A DNA stretch of 33,070 nt from positions 1 to 33,070 of the forward strand of contig JBDRQW010000046.1 of the NCBI GenBank assembly GCA_043826085.1, in the 5' to 3' direction. Each line of letters opens with the position of its first letter. Positions within the stretch are counted from its first letter, which is position 1. A program made the translations under genes and the position numbers. This document shows, in pieces, positions 4,092 to 9,984 of this stretch. The notes beneath the pieces were generated by a model. That model had not been told where the DNA came from and ran no database searches. It saw only the letters and a list, made by a program, of their open reading frames with translations. Source of the stretch: Candidatus Beckwithbacteria bacterium. Its GTDB lineage: Bacteria; Patescibacteriota; Microgenomatia; UBA1400; CG1-02-47-37.

Positions 4092-4119
4092 TTGACAAAT
4101 ATGTTTTTTCCTGTATATT
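4092..4119 (+). promoter_or_regulatory. Sigma70-like promoter heading the sORF/ammonia-lyase operon
   Basis: TTGACA (4092-4097), 16-nt spacer, TATATT (4114-4119). The -35 context CTTGACAAATAT is shared with the 3446 promoter. Confidence 0.55.
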
Positions 4120-4143
4120 AACGTATTAACATGCTAATATATC

Positions 4144-4166
4144 ATTTAAAGTTCCGAACTTTAAAT
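4144..4166. promoter_or_regulatory. 23-nt perfect palindrome (11+1+11) in the operon leader; candidate operator or RNA hairpin
   Basis: atttaaagttc-c-gaactttaaat, roughly +19 to +41 relative to the predicted transcription start. Confidence 0.45.
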
Positions 4167-4178
4167 ATTTATACAAAT

Positions 4179-4256
4179 ATGAACAAACAAAACAAAATAT
4201 TAAATTCTCATCACGGCCCACTTTTATGCGGGACGGGATATTTCATGTTGAAATAA
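4179..4256 (+). CDS. Candidate 25-codon sORF (leader peptide or precursor peptide)
   Basis: ATG at 4179 to TAA at 4254-4256 encodes MNKQNKILNSHHGPLLCGTGYFMLK. No clear Shine-Dalgarno. Sits between a promoter and a terminator. Too short for the supplied ORF track. Confidence 0.25.
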   Translation: MNKQNKILNSHHGPLLCGTGYFMLK

Positions 4257-4276
4257 ATTAATAAATTAAAAATATA

Positions 4277-4312
4277 ATCCCCCACCCCCCGCATTCTCTC
4301 GGGGGATTTTTT
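4277..4312 (+). terminator. Intrinsic terminator/attenuator between the sORF and the ammonia-lyase gene
   Basis: cccccg (4286-4291) pairs with cggggg (4300-4305). An alternative 7-bp stem is atccccc/gggggat. Followed by six T (4307-4312). The lyase RBS GGAG follows at 4315. Confidence 0.65.
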
Positions 4313-6507: not shown

Positions 6508-6525
6508 TCCTAACCGGATCAGGAC
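6501..6525 (+). other. 10-bp perfect hairpin containing the nitroreductase stop codon
   Basis: gtcctgatcc-taacc-ggatcaggac. The TGA stop lies in the left arm. No U-run follows, so it is probably not a strong terminator. Confidence 0.5.
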
Positions 6526-6547
6526 TAAAAGAAAGTTGAAATAACTT

Positions 6548-7954
6548 ATGACGTCAAAAGAAATTAAAACTAAACCGCTTCAATTATTAACTTCTCAAAG
6601 AGAAATAAATAGATTTAATCTTAAGCCTGAACAGCCCTTATTTGCTTTAACTAGCGATGGAGGAATGGTTAAATCTCAAGATCCAAGAGTAAATTCTGTT
6701 GGAGAATTATTAACAAAGGTTGAAGATTTACTTCTTGAGCCAGAAGCAGTTTTTTGTGAAGAAATTTTATCTAGGATTTTAGATAAATCAACTAGTAGTG
6801 TTGCCAGACTAGAACCTCAGGCATTATTATCTCCACTTGAGTTTGAAGCTTACGTTTATAGATTTAAGAATGGTGGTGCTTATCTTAACCCAACACAGGA
6901 TTTTTATGCAGTTGTAGATGAAACAAAACTACCGGTGGCATATGGTTCAAGAAGCAGTCTATGCCCACCTATGGCAAATATTTCAATATTCAGTCAAAAA
7001 CTGATGAATATTCCAGACGAACCAGTCTGTACTGGAGGGGTTCAACCTTGTTTACGAAATGAGGTAATTTATGAACAGGAAAAAATCCGGTTCCCATGGT
7101 TTACCCAAACAGATATTGAACTAATAGCAATAACTTCACTTGACCAACAAGAGAATCAAGAAATTCTGTTAGATACCTATTCTTGCTATCAAATGATCAA
7201 AGCACTCGAATTAGCAGGTATTCCTAATAAAAGTATCGAAATTAGAATTAATAATTATATGCAAATTCTAAATAATGTTCTTGGAGATCAAGTCCCATGG
7301 TTAGAAAAAGAAATTTTTGGTTATCAATCACTTAATAATTTATCAGCCTTAAAAGCTGCTAGAAAAACAGAAACTGATGAGTATCGGATAGAACAAAAAC
7401 AATCCCTAAATAAATTATCTAATTTCTGTAAAAAGTTTGATGTTCCTGAAGAAGCTCAAGCATTTTTCTCAAATATAATCACTAAGGGTGGATATGATTT
7501 TTCTTGCCTATCTGATAATCCTGGAGAATCACCCGAAATAATAACAAATTTTAATTACATTGATGCAATCCAGGCTTACTTACGATTAATTACTACGTCA
7601 ACCTTGCTTAGAAATTTTTTCCCTGGAAGGCAAATATGTAAAATCGATCCACTTTCATATAGGGGAGGTTTTCCTGGTTATGACAAAACTACTATGCAAA
7701 TAGACGTTATTCTCCCAAACGATCAAGTAATGATAGAGGTTGGCGGTGGCGGAGCTTATCCGAATTCCCTGCAAACAGCGGCTGAAGTACTGGGTGATAG
7801 TTATTTAAATCAACCTCAATCCTATGCAGTTGGATTTGCTTTAGGTAATGCTCGTGTATACAGTGCAATGGAAAAGTTTTTACCATCACCACAAGTTAAT
7901 TCGACAGTTTCTGTTTTATCTTGGAATGAATTTCTAGAAGTATGCAACCAATAA
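6548..7954 (+). CDS. Degenerate class II aaRS-like protein (HisRS/HisZ-like catalytic core, no anticodon-binding domain)
   Basis: 468 aa, with the hisS product in this window as comparator:
- Motif-2-like: CLRNEVIYEQEKIRFPWFTQTDIELIA (aa 168-194) versus [24 protein letters not shown].
- DPLSYRGGFPGYD versus FIARGLAYYTG.
- Motif-3-like: VGGGGAYPN...YAVGFALGNARVY versus GCGRYDN...ATGGSFGIERIV.
The protein ends about 25 aa after motif 3. Confidence 0.6.
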   Translation: MTSKEIKTKPLQLLTSQREINRFNLKPEQPLFALTSDGGMVKSQDPRVNSVGELLTKVEDLLLEPEAVFCEEILSRILDKSTSSVARLEPQALLSPLEFEAYVYRFKNGGAYLNPTQDFYAVVDETKLPVAYGSRSSLCPPMANISIFSQKLMNIPDEPVCTGGVQPCLRNEVIYEQEKIRFPWFTQTDIELIAITSLDQQENQEILLDTYSCYQMIKALELAGIPNKSIEIRINNYMQILNNVLGDQVPWLEKEIFGYQSLNNLSALKAARKTETDEYRIEQKQSLNKLSNFCKKFDVPEEAQAFFSNIITKGGYDFSCLSDNPGESPEIITNFNYIDAIQAYLRLITTSTLLRNFFPGRQICKIDPLSYRGGFPGYDKTTMQIDVILPNDQVMIEVGGGGAYPNSLQTAAEVLGDSYLNQPQSYAVGFALGNARVYSAMEKFLPSPQVNSTVSVLSWNEFLEVCNQ

Positions 7955-9024
7955 GAAAAGAGATCATTTCAATAGTTTCTAAACTTATATCTTTTAAAAC
8001 TATTGATAAAAATTTACAAGAAATAAATAACTGCATTGATTATATTCAAGATTATTTTTCAAATTCAAAATTGATAGTAAAAAAATTTACTTCTGGGAAT
8101 ATTCCTTCATTAGTTATTAGTAATCAAGATACTAAATCTTTTGATATTTTGTTTAATGGGCATATAGACGTAGTGCCTGGAACAAAAAAACAATTTACTG
8201 CAAAAGTAACTAATTTAAAAATATTTGGTCGAGGAGCAATTGATATGAAAGGCTCAATTGCTAGTTTAATGGTGCTGTTTAAAAATTTACCGAAGATCAA
8301 CAAAAAGGTTGGATTAATGATCGTTAGCGACGAAGAAATTAATGGCACTAACGGAACAAATTATTTAGTTAATAAAAAAGTTTTAAAATCTAAATTTACT
8401 ATTATTGCTGAAGAAAGCGATTTTAATATTGTAACTAAACAGAAGGGGCAAATAACAATAAAATTAAAAGCATTGGGTAAGAGTGGACATGGATCTCAAC
8501 CGTGGGCTGGTGAAAATGCAATTGAAAAACTTTATAAATATTATTTAAAAATTAGAAATAAATTTCCACAAAATCAAACAGATATTTGGAATTCAAGTAG
8601 TATCAATCTAGGAGTTATTGCGGGAGGTGAAGCAGTTAATGTTATTCCAAATTATGCAGAAGCAAAAATTGATATTAGATATCCGACTATCAAAAGATTA
8701 GAAACTCTTTTACATGATTTAAAAAAAATTACTCAAAGCGATGAAACATTTATGATTAATTCCAAAACTAATCCGATGAACTCTGGAAGATCTTTACCTT
8801 ATATTAATAAACTAAAACAGATAATAAAGGAGGAGATTGGACGTAAATCTCAAATCAAATGGACAAATTATTGTAGTGATGGAAGGTATTTTTCTGACAA
8901 GAAACTGCCTGTAATAGAATTTGGTCCAACTGGAGAAAATTACCACACTATAAAAGAGTATGTTGAAATAAACAGCCTAGTTCAATACTATAATATTATT
9001 AATAAGCTGATAGAATCAATCTAG
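7942..9024 (+). CDS. M20-family metallopeptidase/deacylase (ArgE/DapE/PepV-like)
   Basis: 360 aa. NGHIDVVPG, GRGAIDMKG, VSDEEINGTNG and GKSGHGSQPW are M20 metal-binding and catalytic motifs. The start overlaps the upstream ORF by 13 nt. Confidence 0.8.
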   Translation: MQPIRKEIISIVSKLISFKTIDKNLQEINNCIDYIQDYFSNSKLIVKKFTSGNIPSLVISNQDTKSFDILFNGHIDVVPGTKKQFTAKVTNLKIFGRGAIDMKGSIASLMVLFKNLPKINKKVGLMIVSDEEINGTNGTNYLVNKKVLKSKFTIIAEESDFNIVTKQKGQITIKLKALGKSGHGSQPWAGENAIEKLYKYYLKIRNKFPQNQTDIWNSSSINLGVIAGGEAVNVIPNYAEAKIDIRYPTIKRLETLLHDLKKITQSDETFMINSKTNPMNSGRSLPYINKLKQIIKEEIGRKSQIKWTNYCSDGRYFSDKKLPVIEFGPTGENYHTIKEYVEINSLVQYYNIINKLIESI

Positions 9025-9027
9025 TTT

Positions 9028-9984
9028 ATGAGCTCTAAAATAAATCCATTCACCAACGTCATTCAAAACTGCATGGCTGTCAAACCAACCGATTCAGTTC
9101 TAATCGTCACTGATCCTACAAGAAATCTCCTTGCATGTGAGTTCTTAAAAGCGGCTAAAGAAATCACCAAAAAAGCTGAGCTTATTTCTTTTGACAGCAT
9201 GATCGAGAACGCCCAGGAGCCGCCAAAAGAAATCGGCGATCTTTTACACACATCTGATGTGTGTTTGTTAATAACCACCTATTCCCTCTCCCACACCCAA
9301 GCCAGAAAAAACGCTTGCAAGGCTGGTGCCCGAATTGCTTCCATGCCAGGCATCACCAAAGACATGATATTAAGAACCCTATCTGAGGATTACTCAGAGA
9401 TTGCCAAAACTAGCCAAAAATTAAAAAAAGTTTTAGAAACAGGTAAAAAAGTTACTATTACCTCTCCAGGTGGCACTAACCTCACTCTTACCATCACTAA
9501 TCGGCCAGTTATTGCCGATACCGGCTTTTTCACTAAACCGGGCGACTTTGGTAACTTACCAGCCGGAGAAACTTTCTTAGCTCCAATTGAAGAAAAAACT
9601 AACGGCACAATTATTTTTGATGGTTCCTTTGCCGGTATCACTCTAGATAAACCCATTAAAATAGAAGTTAAAAACGGCCTTGCTATAAAAATCTCTGGCG
9701 GTAAAGCCGCCAAAACCCTCAAGAAACTCATTGACAGGGTCAGACCCTGTCATAAAGCTAAAATCATTGGTGAACTTGGTCTTGGCACCAATAAAACCTG
9801 TAAGCTATGTCCACAAATTTTAGAAGCCGAAAAAGTCTATGGTACTGCCCATCTAGCTCTTGGTAATAACTTTGGTTTTGGTGGCAGTAACCAAGTCTCC
9901 TTCCACTCCGACGGCATTATCCTCAACCCAACTGTTACAGTTGACAAAAAAATCATCATCAAAAATAACAAAATCCTAATCTAA
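9028..9984 (+). CDS. M29-family aminopeptidase (AmpS/PepS-like, short form)
   Basis: 318 aa. GNLPAGETFLAP, GELGLGTN, GTAHLALGN and SFHSDGI match M29 conserved blocks. Lies 3 nt after the M20 stop. Confidence 0.75.
   Translation: MSSKINPFTNVIQNCMAVKPTDSVLIVTDPTRNLLACEFLKAAKEITKKAELISFDSMIENAQEPPKEIGDLLHTSDVCLLITTYSLSHTQARKNACKAGARIASMPGITKDMILRTLSEDYSEIAKTSQKLKKVLETGKKVTITSPGGTNLTLTITNRPVIADTGFFTKPGDFGNLPAGETFLAPIEEKTNGTIIFDGSFAGITLDKPIKIEVKNGLAIKISGGKAAKTLKKLIDRVRPCHKAKIIGELGLGTNKTCKLCPQILEAEKVYGTAHLALGNNFGFGGSNQVSFHSDGIILNPTVTVDKKIIIKNNKILI
9244..9266. repeat. Copy 1 of the 23-nt element TTACACACATCTGATGTGTGTTT (core 9+1+9 palindrome)
   Basis: Identical 23-mer to the copies at 18194-18216 and 19823-19845. 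In frame inside the M29 CDS, encoding LHTSDVCL. Confidence 0.85.
9732..9752. repeat. 21-nt perfect palindrome inside the M29 CDS
   Basis: tgacagggtc-a-gaccctgtca, encoding DRVRPCH. Confidence 0.7.

What the first reader, a model, noticed from the sequence alone, without database searches (positions are those of the whole stretch)
4092..9984. Histidine-themed five-gene accessory operon next to hisS: MIO ammonia-lyase, nitroreductase, HisRS/HisZ-like paralog, M20 and M29 peptidases
Seen in sequence:
- Five same-strand ORFs are tightly linked, with gaps of 6, 40 and 3 nt and one 13-nt overlap.
- They sit behind their own promoter, sORF and terminator leader.
- Hairpins follow the last gene, then the canonical hisS.

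Why the combination is unusual:
- No hutU, hutI or hutG (the classical Hut pathway) accompanies the HutH-like lyase.
- No hisG accompanies the HisZ-like protein.
- Neither the canonical Hut pathway nor the HisZ/HisG complex explains the gene set, so I do not recognise it as a described pathway.

Working hypotheses (inference):
- (a) A peptide-to-histidine-to-urocanate module. The two metallopeptidases would release His, the lyase would deaminate it, the FMN enzyme would act on the unsaturated product, and the catalytically degenerate HisRS-like protein would serve as a histidine-binding regulatory subunit, as HisZ does for HisG.
- (b) A small-molecule or peptide-tailoring cluster acting on the upstream sORF product.

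Either would be unexpected in an otherwise minimal genome.
Basis: partly seen in the sequence, partly recalled or inferred. Interest (0 to 1): 0.82.

Follow-up and report, generated by a model that had tools for sequence, protein, structure and literature searches.

The report
Histidine-gated lyase, HisRS-like ligase, deacylase operon
A Patescibacteria (CPR) genome carries a real, conserved operon that joins a true histidine ammonia-lyase to a new, shortened but apparently still active relative of histidyl-tRNA synthetase and a metal-dependent deacylase, wired to histidine/tRNA-His status; it matches no pathway I know of.

Summary
The five ORFs, their spacing, the promoter/sORF/terminator leader and the downstream hisS are all as described.

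- **Conserved unit.** It is not the five genes. It is a triad of HutH-type lyase, a ~370-470 aa HisRS-like protein and a usually overlapping ArgE/DapE-type M20 hydrolase, found in 9 further distinct contig contexts.
- **Variable fourth gene.** A nitroreductase-fold enzyme (window, L001, L021), a ThrC/dehydratase-like PLP enzyme (L004, L009/L022, L010, L017), or not seen (L008, short contig).
- **Fifth gene.** The M29/NicX-fold gene is lineage-specific.
- **Histidine link.** hisS follows the module in three loci and tRNA-His precedes it in a fourth. Leader ORFs carry tandem His codons before a terminator. A TrpR-like gene and a shared 14-nt operator-like motif recur.
- **HisRS-like protein.**
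  - It has the class II HisRS/HisZ fold and no anticodon-binding domain, and is acidic (pI ~4.7).
  - Unlike a real HisZ, it keeps the ATP/catalytic residues (R113, E115, F125, Q127, R259, R311 equivalents) and changes the alpha-amine binders.
  - It is more likely an ATP-dependent ligase for an imidazole acid than a degenerate regulator.
- **Status.** The family is very rare (24 hits in 1.84 billion representatives) and unmodelled. The pathway product is unknown.

The parts
3135..3413 (+). TrpR-like (YerC/TrpR family) putative repressor of the module
   Evidence: Pfam Trp_repressor E 2e-22. The same family lies directly upstream of the lyase in L001/L002 and L021. In the window a Phd/ParE pair (3512-4071) is inserted in between.
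4092..4119 (+). Sigma-70-like promoter TTGACA-16-TATATT
   Evidence: 11/12 consensus match. The predicted start lies 4-5 nt before the sORF ATG.
4114..4141 (.). Operator-like imperfect palindrome containing the 14-mer TATTAACGTATTAA (4116-4129)
   Evidence: The exact 14-mer occurs once in the window. It recurs at the equivalent promoter of L001 (202-215) and, with 1 mismatch, of L021 (8029-8042).
4131..4256 (+). Leader sORF with tandem His codons CAT CAC at 4209-4214 (..NSHHGP..)
   Evidence: Analogous leaders: L010 MFKLTSQHHAHILPERRG*, L021 ..GLNHHHNN*, L001 ..NINHHHQNQ...
4286..4312 (+). Intrinsic-terminator-like hairpin plus T-run, 15 nt before the lyase ATG
   Evidence: The hairpin persists in all RNA folds.
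4327..5859 (+). Histidine ammonia-lyase (MIO enzyme; triad reads TSG)
   Evidence: hutH equivalog 545 bits against cut-off 539. Y56, H86, N198, Q277, Y280, R283, F329 and E415 are invariant in 5 orthologues. Aligned to P. putida HAL.
5866..6507 (+). Nitroreductase-fold FMN enzyme (variable accessory gene)
   Evidence: PF00881 E 2e-25. Best PDB matches are 3gfa, a BluB-like protein and IYD. Orthologues occur in L001 and L021 (49-60% id). Other loci carry a PLP enzyme at this place.
6501..6525 (.). Perfect 10-bp hairpin in the 40-nt gap before the HisRS-like gene
   Evidence: Function unknown.
6548..7954 (+). New HisRS-like class II core protein without an anticodon-binding domain; predicted adenylate-forming ligase
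   Evidence: AF2 pLDDT 78, pTM 0.84. Foldseek hits HisZ/HisRS/GCN2 at E ~1e-12. Catalytic residues are invariant in contrast to HisZ. pI 4.7. Only 24 relatives in 1.84 billion representatives.
7942..9024 (+). ArgE/DapE-type M20 amidohydrolase, overlapping the HisRS-like gene by 13 nt
   Evidence: Pfam M20 + M20_dimer. TIGR01910 205 bits against cut-off 218. H74, D76, D101, E131, E132, E157/158 and H335 are invariant. It follows the HisRS-like gene in every locus with sequence there.
9028..9984 (+). Short M29/NicX-fold metalloenzyme (annotated aminopeptidase in Patescibacteria); not part of the conserved module
   Evidence: Pfam M29 E 1.5e-11. AF2 pLDDT 96; Foldseek NicX TM 0.83, PepS/AmpT/AmpS TM 0.64-0.72. 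2919 homologues. Absent from L001, L010 and L017; replaced by M24 in L021.
10049..10075 (.). 13-bp perfect hairpin between the M29-like gene and hisS, with no T-run
   Evidence: No terminator was called here, so read-through into hisS is possible.
10112..11455 (+). Canonical histidyl-tRNA synthetase
   Evidence: hisS equivalog 375 bits against cut-off 287. pI 9.4. hisS also follows the module in L010 and L021.
11463..12365 (+). EamA/DMT-family transporter directly after hisS
   Evidence: Pfam EamA E 3e-39. The same hisS-EamA pair occurs in L021.

Best explanation
This is a conserved, probably horizontally acquired, histidine-gated enzyme module of Patescibacteria.

**Shown**
- Gene 1 is a fully equipped histidine ammonia-lyase.
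- Gene 3 is a class II HisRS-fold protein without an anticodon-binding domain.
  - It keeps every ATP-binding and catalytic residue of HisRS.
  - It has changed the residues that hold the alpha-amino group of histidine.
  - It is acidic.
- Gene 4 is an ArgE/DapE-type di-zinc amidohydrolase with an intact metal site. It almost always overlaps gene 3.
- A fourth enzyme is interchangeable: an FMN nitroreductase-fold enzyme or a ThrC/dehydratase-like PLP enzyme.
- The module sits next to hisS or tRNA-His.
- It lies behind a TrpR-like repressor/operator and a leader ORF with tandem His codons plus a terminator.

**Inferred mechanism**
1. When His-tRNA(His) is well charged, and the TrpR-like repressor is released, transcription reads through the leader.
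2. The lyase converts surplus histidine to urocanate and ammonia.
3. The HisRS-like enzyme uses ATP to adenylate an imidazole-bearing acid. This is most likely urocanate or its reduced form rather than histidine itself. It passes the acyl group to a small-molecule acceptor, not to tRNA.
4. The coupled M20 enzyme makes or cleaves the matching amide, by unmasking the acceptor or releasing the product.
5. The nitroreductase or PLP enzyme tailors one partner.

The M29-like peptidase, hisS and the EamA transporter are neighbours rather than core parts.
For: **Conservation**
- The triad was found in L001/L002/L003, L004, L005, L008, L009/L022, L010, L017 and L021.
- HisRS-like identity falls to about 30% and locus GC ranges from 31 to 53%.

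**Lyase**
- All orthologues pass the hutH equivalog cut-off.
- All HAL catalytic and imidazole-binding residues are invariant.

**HisRS-like protein**
- Fold.
- Invariant R170, E172, F185, Q187, R372, Y378, GGG and R436, mapped to E. coli R113, E115, F125, Q127, R259, Y263/264, HisB and R311 by hhalign (prob 91.6%).
- Control: B. mycoides HisZ has Q at 259 and 311, I at 125 and N at 115, but keeps D83, T85 and GGRYD.
- pI is 4.5-5.0 against 9.4 for the window's HisS.

**M20**
- The metal and catalytic residues are invariant.
- Its start overlaps or abuts the HisRS-like stop in 7 of 8 loci.

**Histidine wiring**
- hisS lies downstream in the window, L010 and L021. tRNA-His(GTG) lies directly upstream in L017.
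- His-codon leaders followed by terminators occur in the window, L010 and L021, and a His run occurs in the tail of the L001 upstream ORF. The background is HH in 2.6% and HHH in 0.4% of 503 random sORFs.
- In L021 a ribosome at the leader stop codon masks the terminator, whereas one stalled at the first His codon does not.
- The operator-like 14-mer is shared by three loci.

**Acquisition**
- Module genes have GC3 of 0.18-0.27 against 0.31-0.45 for neighbours, and lack the window's strand skew.
Against: - No biochemical data exist, and the acyl substrate, acceptor and product are unknown.
- The claim that the alpha-amine binders are lost rests on a low-confidence part of the alignment and on secondary-structure register.
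- No antiterminator structure was found in the window or L010 leaders. The polarity of His control is read from L021 geometry only.
- The leaders of the window, L001 and L021 share ancestry, so they are not independent observations.
- A ligase and a hydrolase for the same bond in one operon would be futile, so the role given to M20 is a guess.
- Swapping a flavoenzyme for a PLP enzyme has no obvious chemical rationale.
- ATP-to-AMP activation is costly for a fermentative organism if the module is purely catabolic.
- Literature could not be searched; all paper tools failed.
Confidence: 0.42

Rival explanations
1. First reader's model (a). This is a peptide-to-histidine-to-urocanate catabolic or ammonia-generating module. 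The HisRS-like protein is a non-catalytic, HisZ-like histidine sensor that regulates the lyase or, given the gene overlap, the M20 hydrolase.
For: - The top structural neighbour is HisZ.
- The protein lacks an anticodon-binding domain and is acidic.
- hisZ-hisG pairs also overlap (25 nt in the control locus), as HisRS-like and M20 do here.
- Peptidases (M20, M29-like, and M24 in L021) and a true HAL are present.
- The L021 leader geometry fits a catabolic, 'on when His is plentiful' logic.
Against: - ATP/catalytic residues are invariant over about 22-30% identity. They are lost in a genuine HisZ.
- The His-pocket residues that HisZ keeps (D/E83, T85, GGRYD) are the ones changed here.
- The protein does not reach the hisZ model.
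- No hisG is nearby.
Confidence: 0.2
2. This is a histidine supply or salvage module, switched on by His-tRNA shortage through a classical attenuator.
- Peptidases free histidine.
- The lyase runs in reverse (urocanate + NH3 to His).
- The ATP-using HisRS-like enzyme pulls or channels the product.
- hisS is co-induced.
For: - Tandem His codons plus a terminator are the hallmark of biosynthetic his leaders.
- hisS or tRNA-His adjacency occurs in four loci.
- No terminator was called between the module and hisS.
- Patescibacteria are generally amino-acid auxotrophs (own knowledge).
Against: - The HAL equilibrium strongly favours deamination at physiological ammonia (own knowledge).
- No antiterminator was found.
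- The L021 geometry points to the opposite polarity.
- The acidic HisRS-like protein is unlikely to charge tRNA.
- The canonical HisRS could trap histidine by itself.
Confidence: 0.13
3. EpmB/EpmA-like logic. The MIO enzyme is a histidine 2,3-aminomutase rather than a lyase. The truncated HisRS paralogue activates beta-histidine and attaches it to a protein, nucleic acid or small molecule. M20 removes or trims the modification.
For: - MIO enzymes include 2,3-aminomutases, and an MIO mutase followed by a beta-amino-acid adenylating enzyme is a recurrent pairing (own knowledge).
- The paralogue lacks the anticodon-binding domain, as EpmA and GluQRS do.
- The alpha-amine binding residues are altered.
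- The MIO triad varies between TSG, ASG and SSG.
Against: - All lyases score above the hutH equivalog cut-off and far below the aminomutase cut-offs.
- No target gene is conserved next to the module.
- The acidic pI argues against nucleic-acid targets.
Confidence: 0.1
4. The arrangement is either a chance juxtaposition of unrelated genes, or a peptide-tailoring (RiPP-like) cluster acting on the upstream sORF product.
For: - The five-gene set as such occurs only in this species' contigs.
- Nitroreductase-fold dehydrogenases occur in RiPP and diketopiperazine pathways (albonoursin synthase hit).
Against: - The triad is conserved in 9 other contig contexts with conserved order and overlaps.
- The sORF sequences are unrelated except for the His run.
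- No RiPP maturation enzymes are present, and PADLOC and Rfam searches found nothing.
Confidence: 0.03

Closest known systems
HisZ, regulatory subunit of short-form ATP phosphoribosyltransferase (HisZ-HisG)
   Same: Class II HisRS-like core without an anticodon-binding domain. It is the best structural match. The gene overlaps the downstream partner gene.
   Different: - No hisG is present.
- It fails the hisZ model.
- It keeps R259, R311, F125 and E115, which HisZ has lost, and alters the D/E83, T85 and GGRYD residues that HisZ keeps.
- The partner is an M20 hydrolase.
Histidyl-tRNA synthetase (HisRS)
   Same: Same fold. Motif 2, HisA, HisB glycine run and motif 3 are recognisable, with the catalytic residues conserved.
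   Different: - 24.9 bits against a cut-off of 286.75 for hisS.
- No anticodon-binding domain.
- The motif 2 loop is about 3 residues longer.
- pI 4.7 against 9.4.
- A canonical hisS sits next door.
Truncated aaRS paralogues that act as ligases: EpmA/PoxA (with the aminomutase EpmB), GluQRS/YadB, AsnA, MshC (with the deacetylase MshB)
   Same: A synthetase catalytic core without tRNA anticodon recognition, predicted to activate a carboxylate with ATP. It is paired with an amino-acid-modifying enzyme (compare EpmB) or with a deacylase (compare MshB). This comparison is from my own knowledge.
   Different: - Different aaRS lineage (HisRS).
- Acceptor unknown.
- No conserved target gene.
- None of these systems includes a HAL or an M20 enzyme.
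Classical Hut pathway (HutH-HutU-HutI-HutG) and the Bacillus hut operon with a terminator before hutH
   Same: First enzyme is a bona fide HutH. A terminator lies immediately upstream of the lyase, as in the HutP-controlled Bacillus operon (own knowledge).
   Different: - No hutU, hutI, hutG or hutP was seen in the window ORFs scanned or in any of the related loci.
- Control appears to use a His-codon leader ORF and a TrpR-like repressor instead.
Leader-peptide attenuators (his, trp, pyrBI leaders)
   Same: A short ORF close to the transcription start, with tandem codons for the cognate amino acid, followed by an intrinsic terminator.
   Different: - Rfam His_leader scores 15.6 bits against 49.
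- Only 2-3 His codons.
- No antiterminator was detected.
- L021 geometry suggests reverse polarity (ribosome occlusion of the terminator, pyrBI-like).

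Membership tests
Histidine ammonia-lyase (HutH, TIGR01225) | Score above the curated equivalog cut-off | tested here: met
   545.2 bits against 539.15 for the window protein. Orthologues score 553-592.
Histidine ammonia-lyase (HutH, TIGR01225) | Catalytic and imidazole-binding residues (P. putida Y53, H83, N195, Q277, Y280, R283, F329, E414) and an MIO-forming X-Ser-Gly triad | tested here: met
   Y56, H86, N198, Q277, Y280, R283, F329 and E415 are invariant. The triad is TSG here, ASG in L010 and SSG in L017. That Thr-Ser-Gly can form MIO is from my own knowledge.
Classical Hut pathway | hutU and hutI accompany hutH | tested here: not met
   None among the 26 window ORFs scanned (about a dozen ORFs of 90 aa or more were not scanned) and none in any related locus. 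The rest of the genome is not available.
HisZ (TIGR00443) | Score above the curated cut-off | tested here: not met
   No hisZ hit at E<0.01 for the window protein or for five relatives.
HisZ (TIGR00443) | Partnered with short-form hisG | tested here: not met
   No hisG among the window ORFs scanned or in any related locus. The downstream partner is always an M20 hydrolase.
HisZ (TIGR00443) | Loss of aminoacylation catalytic residues with a retained histidine pocket | tested here: not met
   The pattern is the opposite. R113, E115, F125, R259 and R311 equivalents are invariant, and the pocket residues are changed. The control HisZ shows the expected losses.
Histidyl-tRNA synthetase (TIGR00442) | Score above the cut-off, and a C-terminal anticodon-binding domain | tested here: not met
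   24.9 bits against 286.75. There is no HGTP_anticodon domain, and the model ends about 30 residues after motif 3.
Class II aaRS catalytic fold | Antiparallel-sheet core with motifs 2 and 3 | tested here: met
   AF2 pTM 0.84. Foldseek probability 1.0 to HisZ, HisRS and GCN2 HisRS-like, TM 0.5-0.7. hhalign probability 91.6%.
Adenylate-forming activity of the HisRS-like protein | ATP-PPi exchange or AMP release with a carboxylate substrate | not testable with these tools
   Only residue conservation supports it.
Nitroreductase superfamily (PF00881) | Pfam gathering score | tested here: met
   90.1 bits against 23.5. No NCBIfam equivalog was reached; the best was BluB at 50 bits against 150.
ArgE/DapE M20 deacylases (TIGR01910) | Subfamily cut-off | tested here: not met
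   205.4 bits against 217.6, so just below. Pfam M20 and M20_dimer are met.
ArgE/DapE M20 deacylases (TIGR01910) | Di-zinc ligands and catalytic Glu | tested here: met
   H74, D76, D101, E131, E132, E157/158 and H335 are invariant in 6 orthologues.
Peptidase M29 (aminopeptidase T/S) | Pfam score, fold and a two-metal E,E,H,H,D site | tested here: inconclusive
   - Pfam 44.2 bits against 27, covering only half the profile.
- The fold is closer to NicX (TM 0.83) than to PepS/AmpT/AmpS (0.64-0.72).
- Invariant E249, E266/E268, H275, H293 and D295 fit a peptidase-like metal site.
Histidine operon leader (Rfam RF00514) / leader-peptide attenuator | Rfam gathering score | tested here: not met
   15.6 bits against 49.
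Histidine operon leader (Rfam RF00514) / leader-peptide attenuator | Leader ORF with tandem cognate codons followed by a terminator | tested here: met
   Window HH, L010 HHAH, L021 HHH, each followed by a hairpin plus T-run.
Histidine operon leader (Rfam RF00514) / leader-peptide attenuator | Alternative antiterminator structure | tested here: not met
   None in ribosome-masked folds of the window and L010. L021 shows direct occlusion of the terminator by a ribosome at the stop codon.

The most novel reading that the evidence does not exclude
The HisRS-like protein founds a new family of aaRS-derived small-molecule ligases. It would activate urocanate, or another alpha-amine-free or beta-amino imidazole acid. 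Together with HAL and an M20 partner it would form a previously undescribed route for histidine-derived metabolites that needs neither HutU nor HutI. The route would be confined to Patescibacteria and gated by a reverse-polarity His-codon attenuator, so that a histidine auxotroph spends only surplus histidine.
Probability: 0.25. Interest if true: 0.85.

Novelty: new variant of a known kind. Interest (0 to 1): 0.68.

Why it matters
- **aaRS paralogues.** Synthetase paralogues that lost tRNA recognition have repeatedly turned out to run unexpected chemistry (HisZ, AsnA, EpmA, GluQRS, MshC). This would add a HisRS-derived member that, unlike HisZ, looks catalytically alive.
- **CPR metabolism.** It gives a histidine ammonia-lyase a metabolic context in organisms where no other Hut gene was found in any of the sequenced neighbourhoods. 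This bears on how ultra-small, auxotrophic CPR bacteria budget a scavenged amino acid.
- **Regulation.** The recurrent His-codon leader, TrpR-like operator and linkage to hisS/tRNA-His form a directly testable regulatory circuit in a phylum with almost no experimentally studied regulation.
- **Annotation.** The family is currently invisible to Pfam and NCBIfam.

Tried and rejected
- **Rfam.** Searches of the window (gathering) and of the leader (E up to 10) gave no riboswitch, T-box or His_leader above threshold. Seven related loci gave only tRNAs.
- **Leader folding.** Thermodynamic and ribosome-masked folding of the window and L010 leaders found no antiterminator, and the fold z-score was -1.2.
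- **PADLOC.** The five proteins and two stand-alone relatives gave no hits.
- **PDB sequence search.** The 468-aa protein and the family profile gave nothing significant. Only the fold comparison worked.
- **Metagenome and viral scans.**
  - The first metagenome scan with A1 found nothing.
  - A2 was too diverse to derive patterns from.
  - The viral-contig scan found nothing.
- **Word-indexed homology search.** Only 3-4 relatives were returned, even with a profile.
- **tRNA charging.** This role for the HisRS-like protein was considered and set aside, because operon-linked members have pI 4.5-5.0.
- **Tailoring of the sORF peptide.** Rejected, because the sORF sequence is not conserved.
- **tRNA-gene island integration.** Considered as an explanation for the L017 adjacency. 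It does not explain the hisS adjacency in three other loci.
- **Literature.**
  - All six literature searches and two paper look-ups failed with time-outs.
  - Statements about prior knowledge therefore rest on my own memory.
  - Novelty could not be checked against the literature.

Full report
**1. Observation**

- 4327-5859 (510 aa)
- 5866-6507 (213 aa)
- 6548-7954 (468 aa)
- 7942-9024 (360 aa)
- 9028-9984 (318 aa)

The gaps are 6, 40 and 3 nt and the overlap is 13 nt.

Profile searches give these assignments:
- Lyase_aromatic / hutH equivalog, 545 bits against a cut-off of 539.
- Nitroreductase.
- No Pfam family and only a faint hisS match (24.9 bits) for the 468-aa protein.
- Peptidase_M20 plus M20_dimer, ArgE/DapE-like.
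- A partial Peptidase_M29 match.
- A canonical hisS at 10112-11455.

The leader has three features:
- A TTGACA-16-TATATT promoter-like site at 4092-4119.
- An sORF at 4131-4256.
- A GC hairpin plus T-run at 4286-4312, which is 15 nt before the lyase start.

A perfect 13-bp hairpin (10049-10075) precedes hisS. The window is from a Patescibacteria (CPR) genome. Its HisS clusters at 90% identity with a protein named from that group, and the other genes are typical housekeeping genes. No hisG, hutU or hutI was seen among the 26 window ORFs scanned; about a dozen mostly short ORFs were not scanned.

**2. What is conserved**

The 468-aa protein is very rare.
- It has three relatives in the 5.8-billion word-indexed set.
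- It has 24 hits at E<=1e-3 in 1.84 billion representatives.

Looking up where these relatives are encoded gave the following contexts.

| Locus | Gene order |
|---|---|
| L001/L002/L003 (Candidatus Dojkabacteria MAG) | TrpR-like, lyase, nitroreductase, HisRS-like, M20 |
| L004 | PLP enzyme, HisRS-like, M20 |
| L005 | HisRS-like, M20 |
| L008 | lyase, HisRS-like, M20 |
| L009/L022 | lyase, PLP enzyme, HisRS-like |
| L010 (53% GC) | lyase, PLP enzyme, HisRS-like, M20, hisS |
| L017 | tRNA-His(GTG), lyase, HisRS-like, M20, PLP enzyme |
| L021 (37-kb contig) | TrpR-like, leader, lyase, HisRS-like, M20, nitroreductase, M24 peptidase, hisS, EamA |

From this table:
- The conserved unit is lyase + HisRS-like + M20.
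- The HisRS-like and M20 genes overlap or abut in nearly every locus.
- The fourth gene is either a nitroreductase-fold enzyme (orthologous at 49-60% identity) or a ThrC/threonine-dehydratase-like PLP enzyme (orthologous at 57%).
- The M29-like gene is not part of the module.
  - It belongs to a large Patescibacteria family (2919 hits).
  - It has an M29/NicX fold.
  - It appears to be a resident neighbour of hisS (P0102 gene call).
- More distant stand-alone relatives (P0008, P0016) lie in unrelated contexts.

The module genes have GC3 of 0.18-0.27 against 0.31-0.45 for their neighbours. They also lack the strong strand skew of the window. This is consistent with acquisition by transfer.

**3. 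The three core enzymes**

*Lyase.*
- All orthologues pass the hutH equivalog cut-off.
- The residues equivalent to P. putida HAL Y53, H83, N195, Q277, Y280, R283, F329 and E414 are invariant.
- The MIO triad is TSG, ASG or SSG.
- It is a histidine ammonia-lyase by every test available. An aminomutase activity cannot be excluded from sequence.

*HisRS-like protein.*
- AF2 gave pLDDT 78 and pTM 0.84 from only four sequences.
- Foldseek returned HisZ, the GCN2 HisRS-like domain and HisRS at E ~1e-12 and probability 1.0.
- There is no anticodon-binding domain.
- Nine members sharing as little as 22% identity have invariant G163, Q166, C168, R170, E172, W184, F185, Q187, R372, Y378, G400-402, G429, A431, G433 and R436.
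- hhalign against three HisRS sequences (probability 91.6%, E 1e-7) maps these to E. coli R113, E115, F125, Q127, R259, Y263/264, the HisB glycines and motif-3 R311.
- As a control I fetched a genuine HisZ that sits next to hisG in Bacillus mycoides.
  - It has Q at 259 and at 311, I at 125 and N at 115.
  - It keeps D83, T85 and GGRYD.
- The new family shows the inverse pattern.
  - ATP and catalysis residues are kept.
  - The alpha-amine/His-pocket residues are changed: an RSS loop in place of RPEGT, and GGG[A/S]Y in place of GGRYD.
  - The register of the first of these is uncertain.
- Operon-linked members are acidic (pI 4.5-5.0), whereas the window's HisS has pI 9.4. This argues against tRNA binding.
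- None of the members reaches any NCBIfam or Pfam cut-off.

I conclude that it is most likely an active adenylate-forming ligase with an altered, still imidazole-related, substrate. It is unlikely to be a degenerate sensor.

*M20.* H74, D76, D101, E131, E132, E157/158 and H335 are invariant, so the enzyme should be an active amidohydrolase.

**4. Wiring to histidine status**

- *hisS.* It follows the module in the window, L021 (related lineage, also with EamA) and the distant L010.
- *tRNA-His.* A tRNA-His gene abuts the lyase in L017.
- *Repressor.* A TrpR-like gene precedes the module in the window, L001 and L021. In the window a Phd/ParE pair separates them.
- *Operator.* The 14-mer TATTA[A/G]CGTATTAA lies at the promoter in all three loci. 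It is exact in the window and L001 and has one mismatch in L021. In each case it is the only such site in that sequence.
- *Leader ORFs.* The ORF just upstream of the lyase carries tandem His codons followed by a hairpin plus T-run.

| Locus | Leader peptide |
|---|---|
| Window | ..NSHHGP.. |
| L010 | MFKLTSQHHAHILPERRG |
| L021 | ..GLNHHHNN, with the stop codon abutting the terminator arm |
| L001 | ..NINHHHQNQ.. at the tail of the TrpR-like ORF |

- *Background.* Among 503 random sORFs from these sequences, HH occurs in 2.6% and HHH in 0.4%. Real proteins here contain only 0.7% His.
- *Polarity.*
  - Folding with ribosome footprints shows no classical antiterminator in the window or L010.
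  - In L021 a ribosome that reaches the stop codon masks the terminator, while one stalled at the first His codon does not.
  - This suggests expression when His-tRNA is plentiful, which is sensible for a lyase in an auxotroph.
  - The polarity remains unresolved.

**5. Explanation and rivals**

*Best-supported reading (confidence about 0.4).*
- It is a histidine-gated module in which HAL turns surplus histidine into urocanate.
- The HisRS-like ligase activates an imidazole acid with ATP and transfers it to a small acceptor.
- The coupled M20 enzyme handles the corresponding amide.
- The flavin or PLP enzyme is exchangeable tailoring.

*Shown:* gene identities, fold, residue conservation, neighbourhood conservation and the leader/operator motifs.

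*Inferred:* substrate, acceptor, direction of control and the role of M20.

*Rivals:*
- A HisZ-like sensor in a peptide-to-His-to-urocanate catabolic module (0.2). This is contradicted by the residue pattern.
- A starvation-induced histidine salvage module with HAL in reverse (0.13).
- An EpmB/EpmA-like aminomutase plus beta-histidine ligase (0.1).
- Chance juxtaposition or sORF tailoring (0.03).

**6. Comparison with known systems and novelty**

- The protein works like the truncated aaRS paralogues that became ligases (EpmA, GluQRS, AsnA, MshC).
- It looks like HisZ but fails the HisZ and HisRS membership tests.
- The lyase is a HutH member without any other Hut pathway gene in any of the sequenced neighbourhoods.
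- The leader resembles amino-acid attenuators but fails the Rfam His_leader model.

I rate it a new variant of a known kind: a new aaRS-paralogue family in a new, conserved, His-linked operon.

I could not check the literature, because every paper-tool call timed out. Prior description cannot be excluded.

Noticed in passing
window 3512-4071: A Phd/YefM antitoxin and ParE/RelE-like toxin pair is inserted between the TrpR-like gene and the module promoter. In L001 and L021 the TrpR-like gene is directly upstream of the module.
   Followed up: partly
window 3081-3105 and 10049-10075: Two intergenic hairpins share the core ACCTGCAGGG. They may be a REP-like repeated element.
   Followed up: no
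window 6501-6525: A perfect 10-bp GC-rich hairpin sits in the 40-nt gap between the nitroreductase and HisRS-like genes. It may be an intra-operon processing or stability element.
   Followed up: no
window 1-33070 (module 4327-9024): The + strand is strongly C-rich (GC skew -0.2 to -0.43) whatever the gene orientation. The four module genes lack this skew and have much lower GC3 (0.18-0.27). The M20 gene is only 27.5% GC.
   Followed up: partly
window 24147-24833: An IS200-like Y1 transposase gene lies among housekeeping genes.
   Followed up: no
L017 3875-4795: The PLP-enzyme gene after M20 carries one in-frame TAG at 4301. This could be a pseudogene, an assembly error or recoding.
   Followed up: partly
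L011 526-2958; L012: A stand-alone relative of the HisRS-like family (P0008) lies next to a 367-aa protein with faint baeRF_family3 similarity (E 0.04-0.07). TIR, ThsB, FRG and phage-sheath genes surround it. This is a possible conflict-system context for a sister clade.
   Followed up: partly
P0102: A 383-aa gene call combines tRNA-synt_His, M29 and NicX Pfam hits. This suggests that the M29-like gene and hisS are neighbours elsewhere in Patescibacteria.
   Followed up: no
L010 11462-12793: The hisS next to the distant module aligns with Thr in place of the motif-3 arginine (GLGDVTL). It still passes the hisS equivalog cut-off (342 bits).
   Followed up: no
window versus L021/L008: Within the nitroreductase-type clade the lyase is 75-86% identical. 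The HisRS-like protein is only about 36% identical and M20 about 42-50%. The ligase evolves far faster than its partners while its catalytic residues stay fixed.
   Followed up: partly
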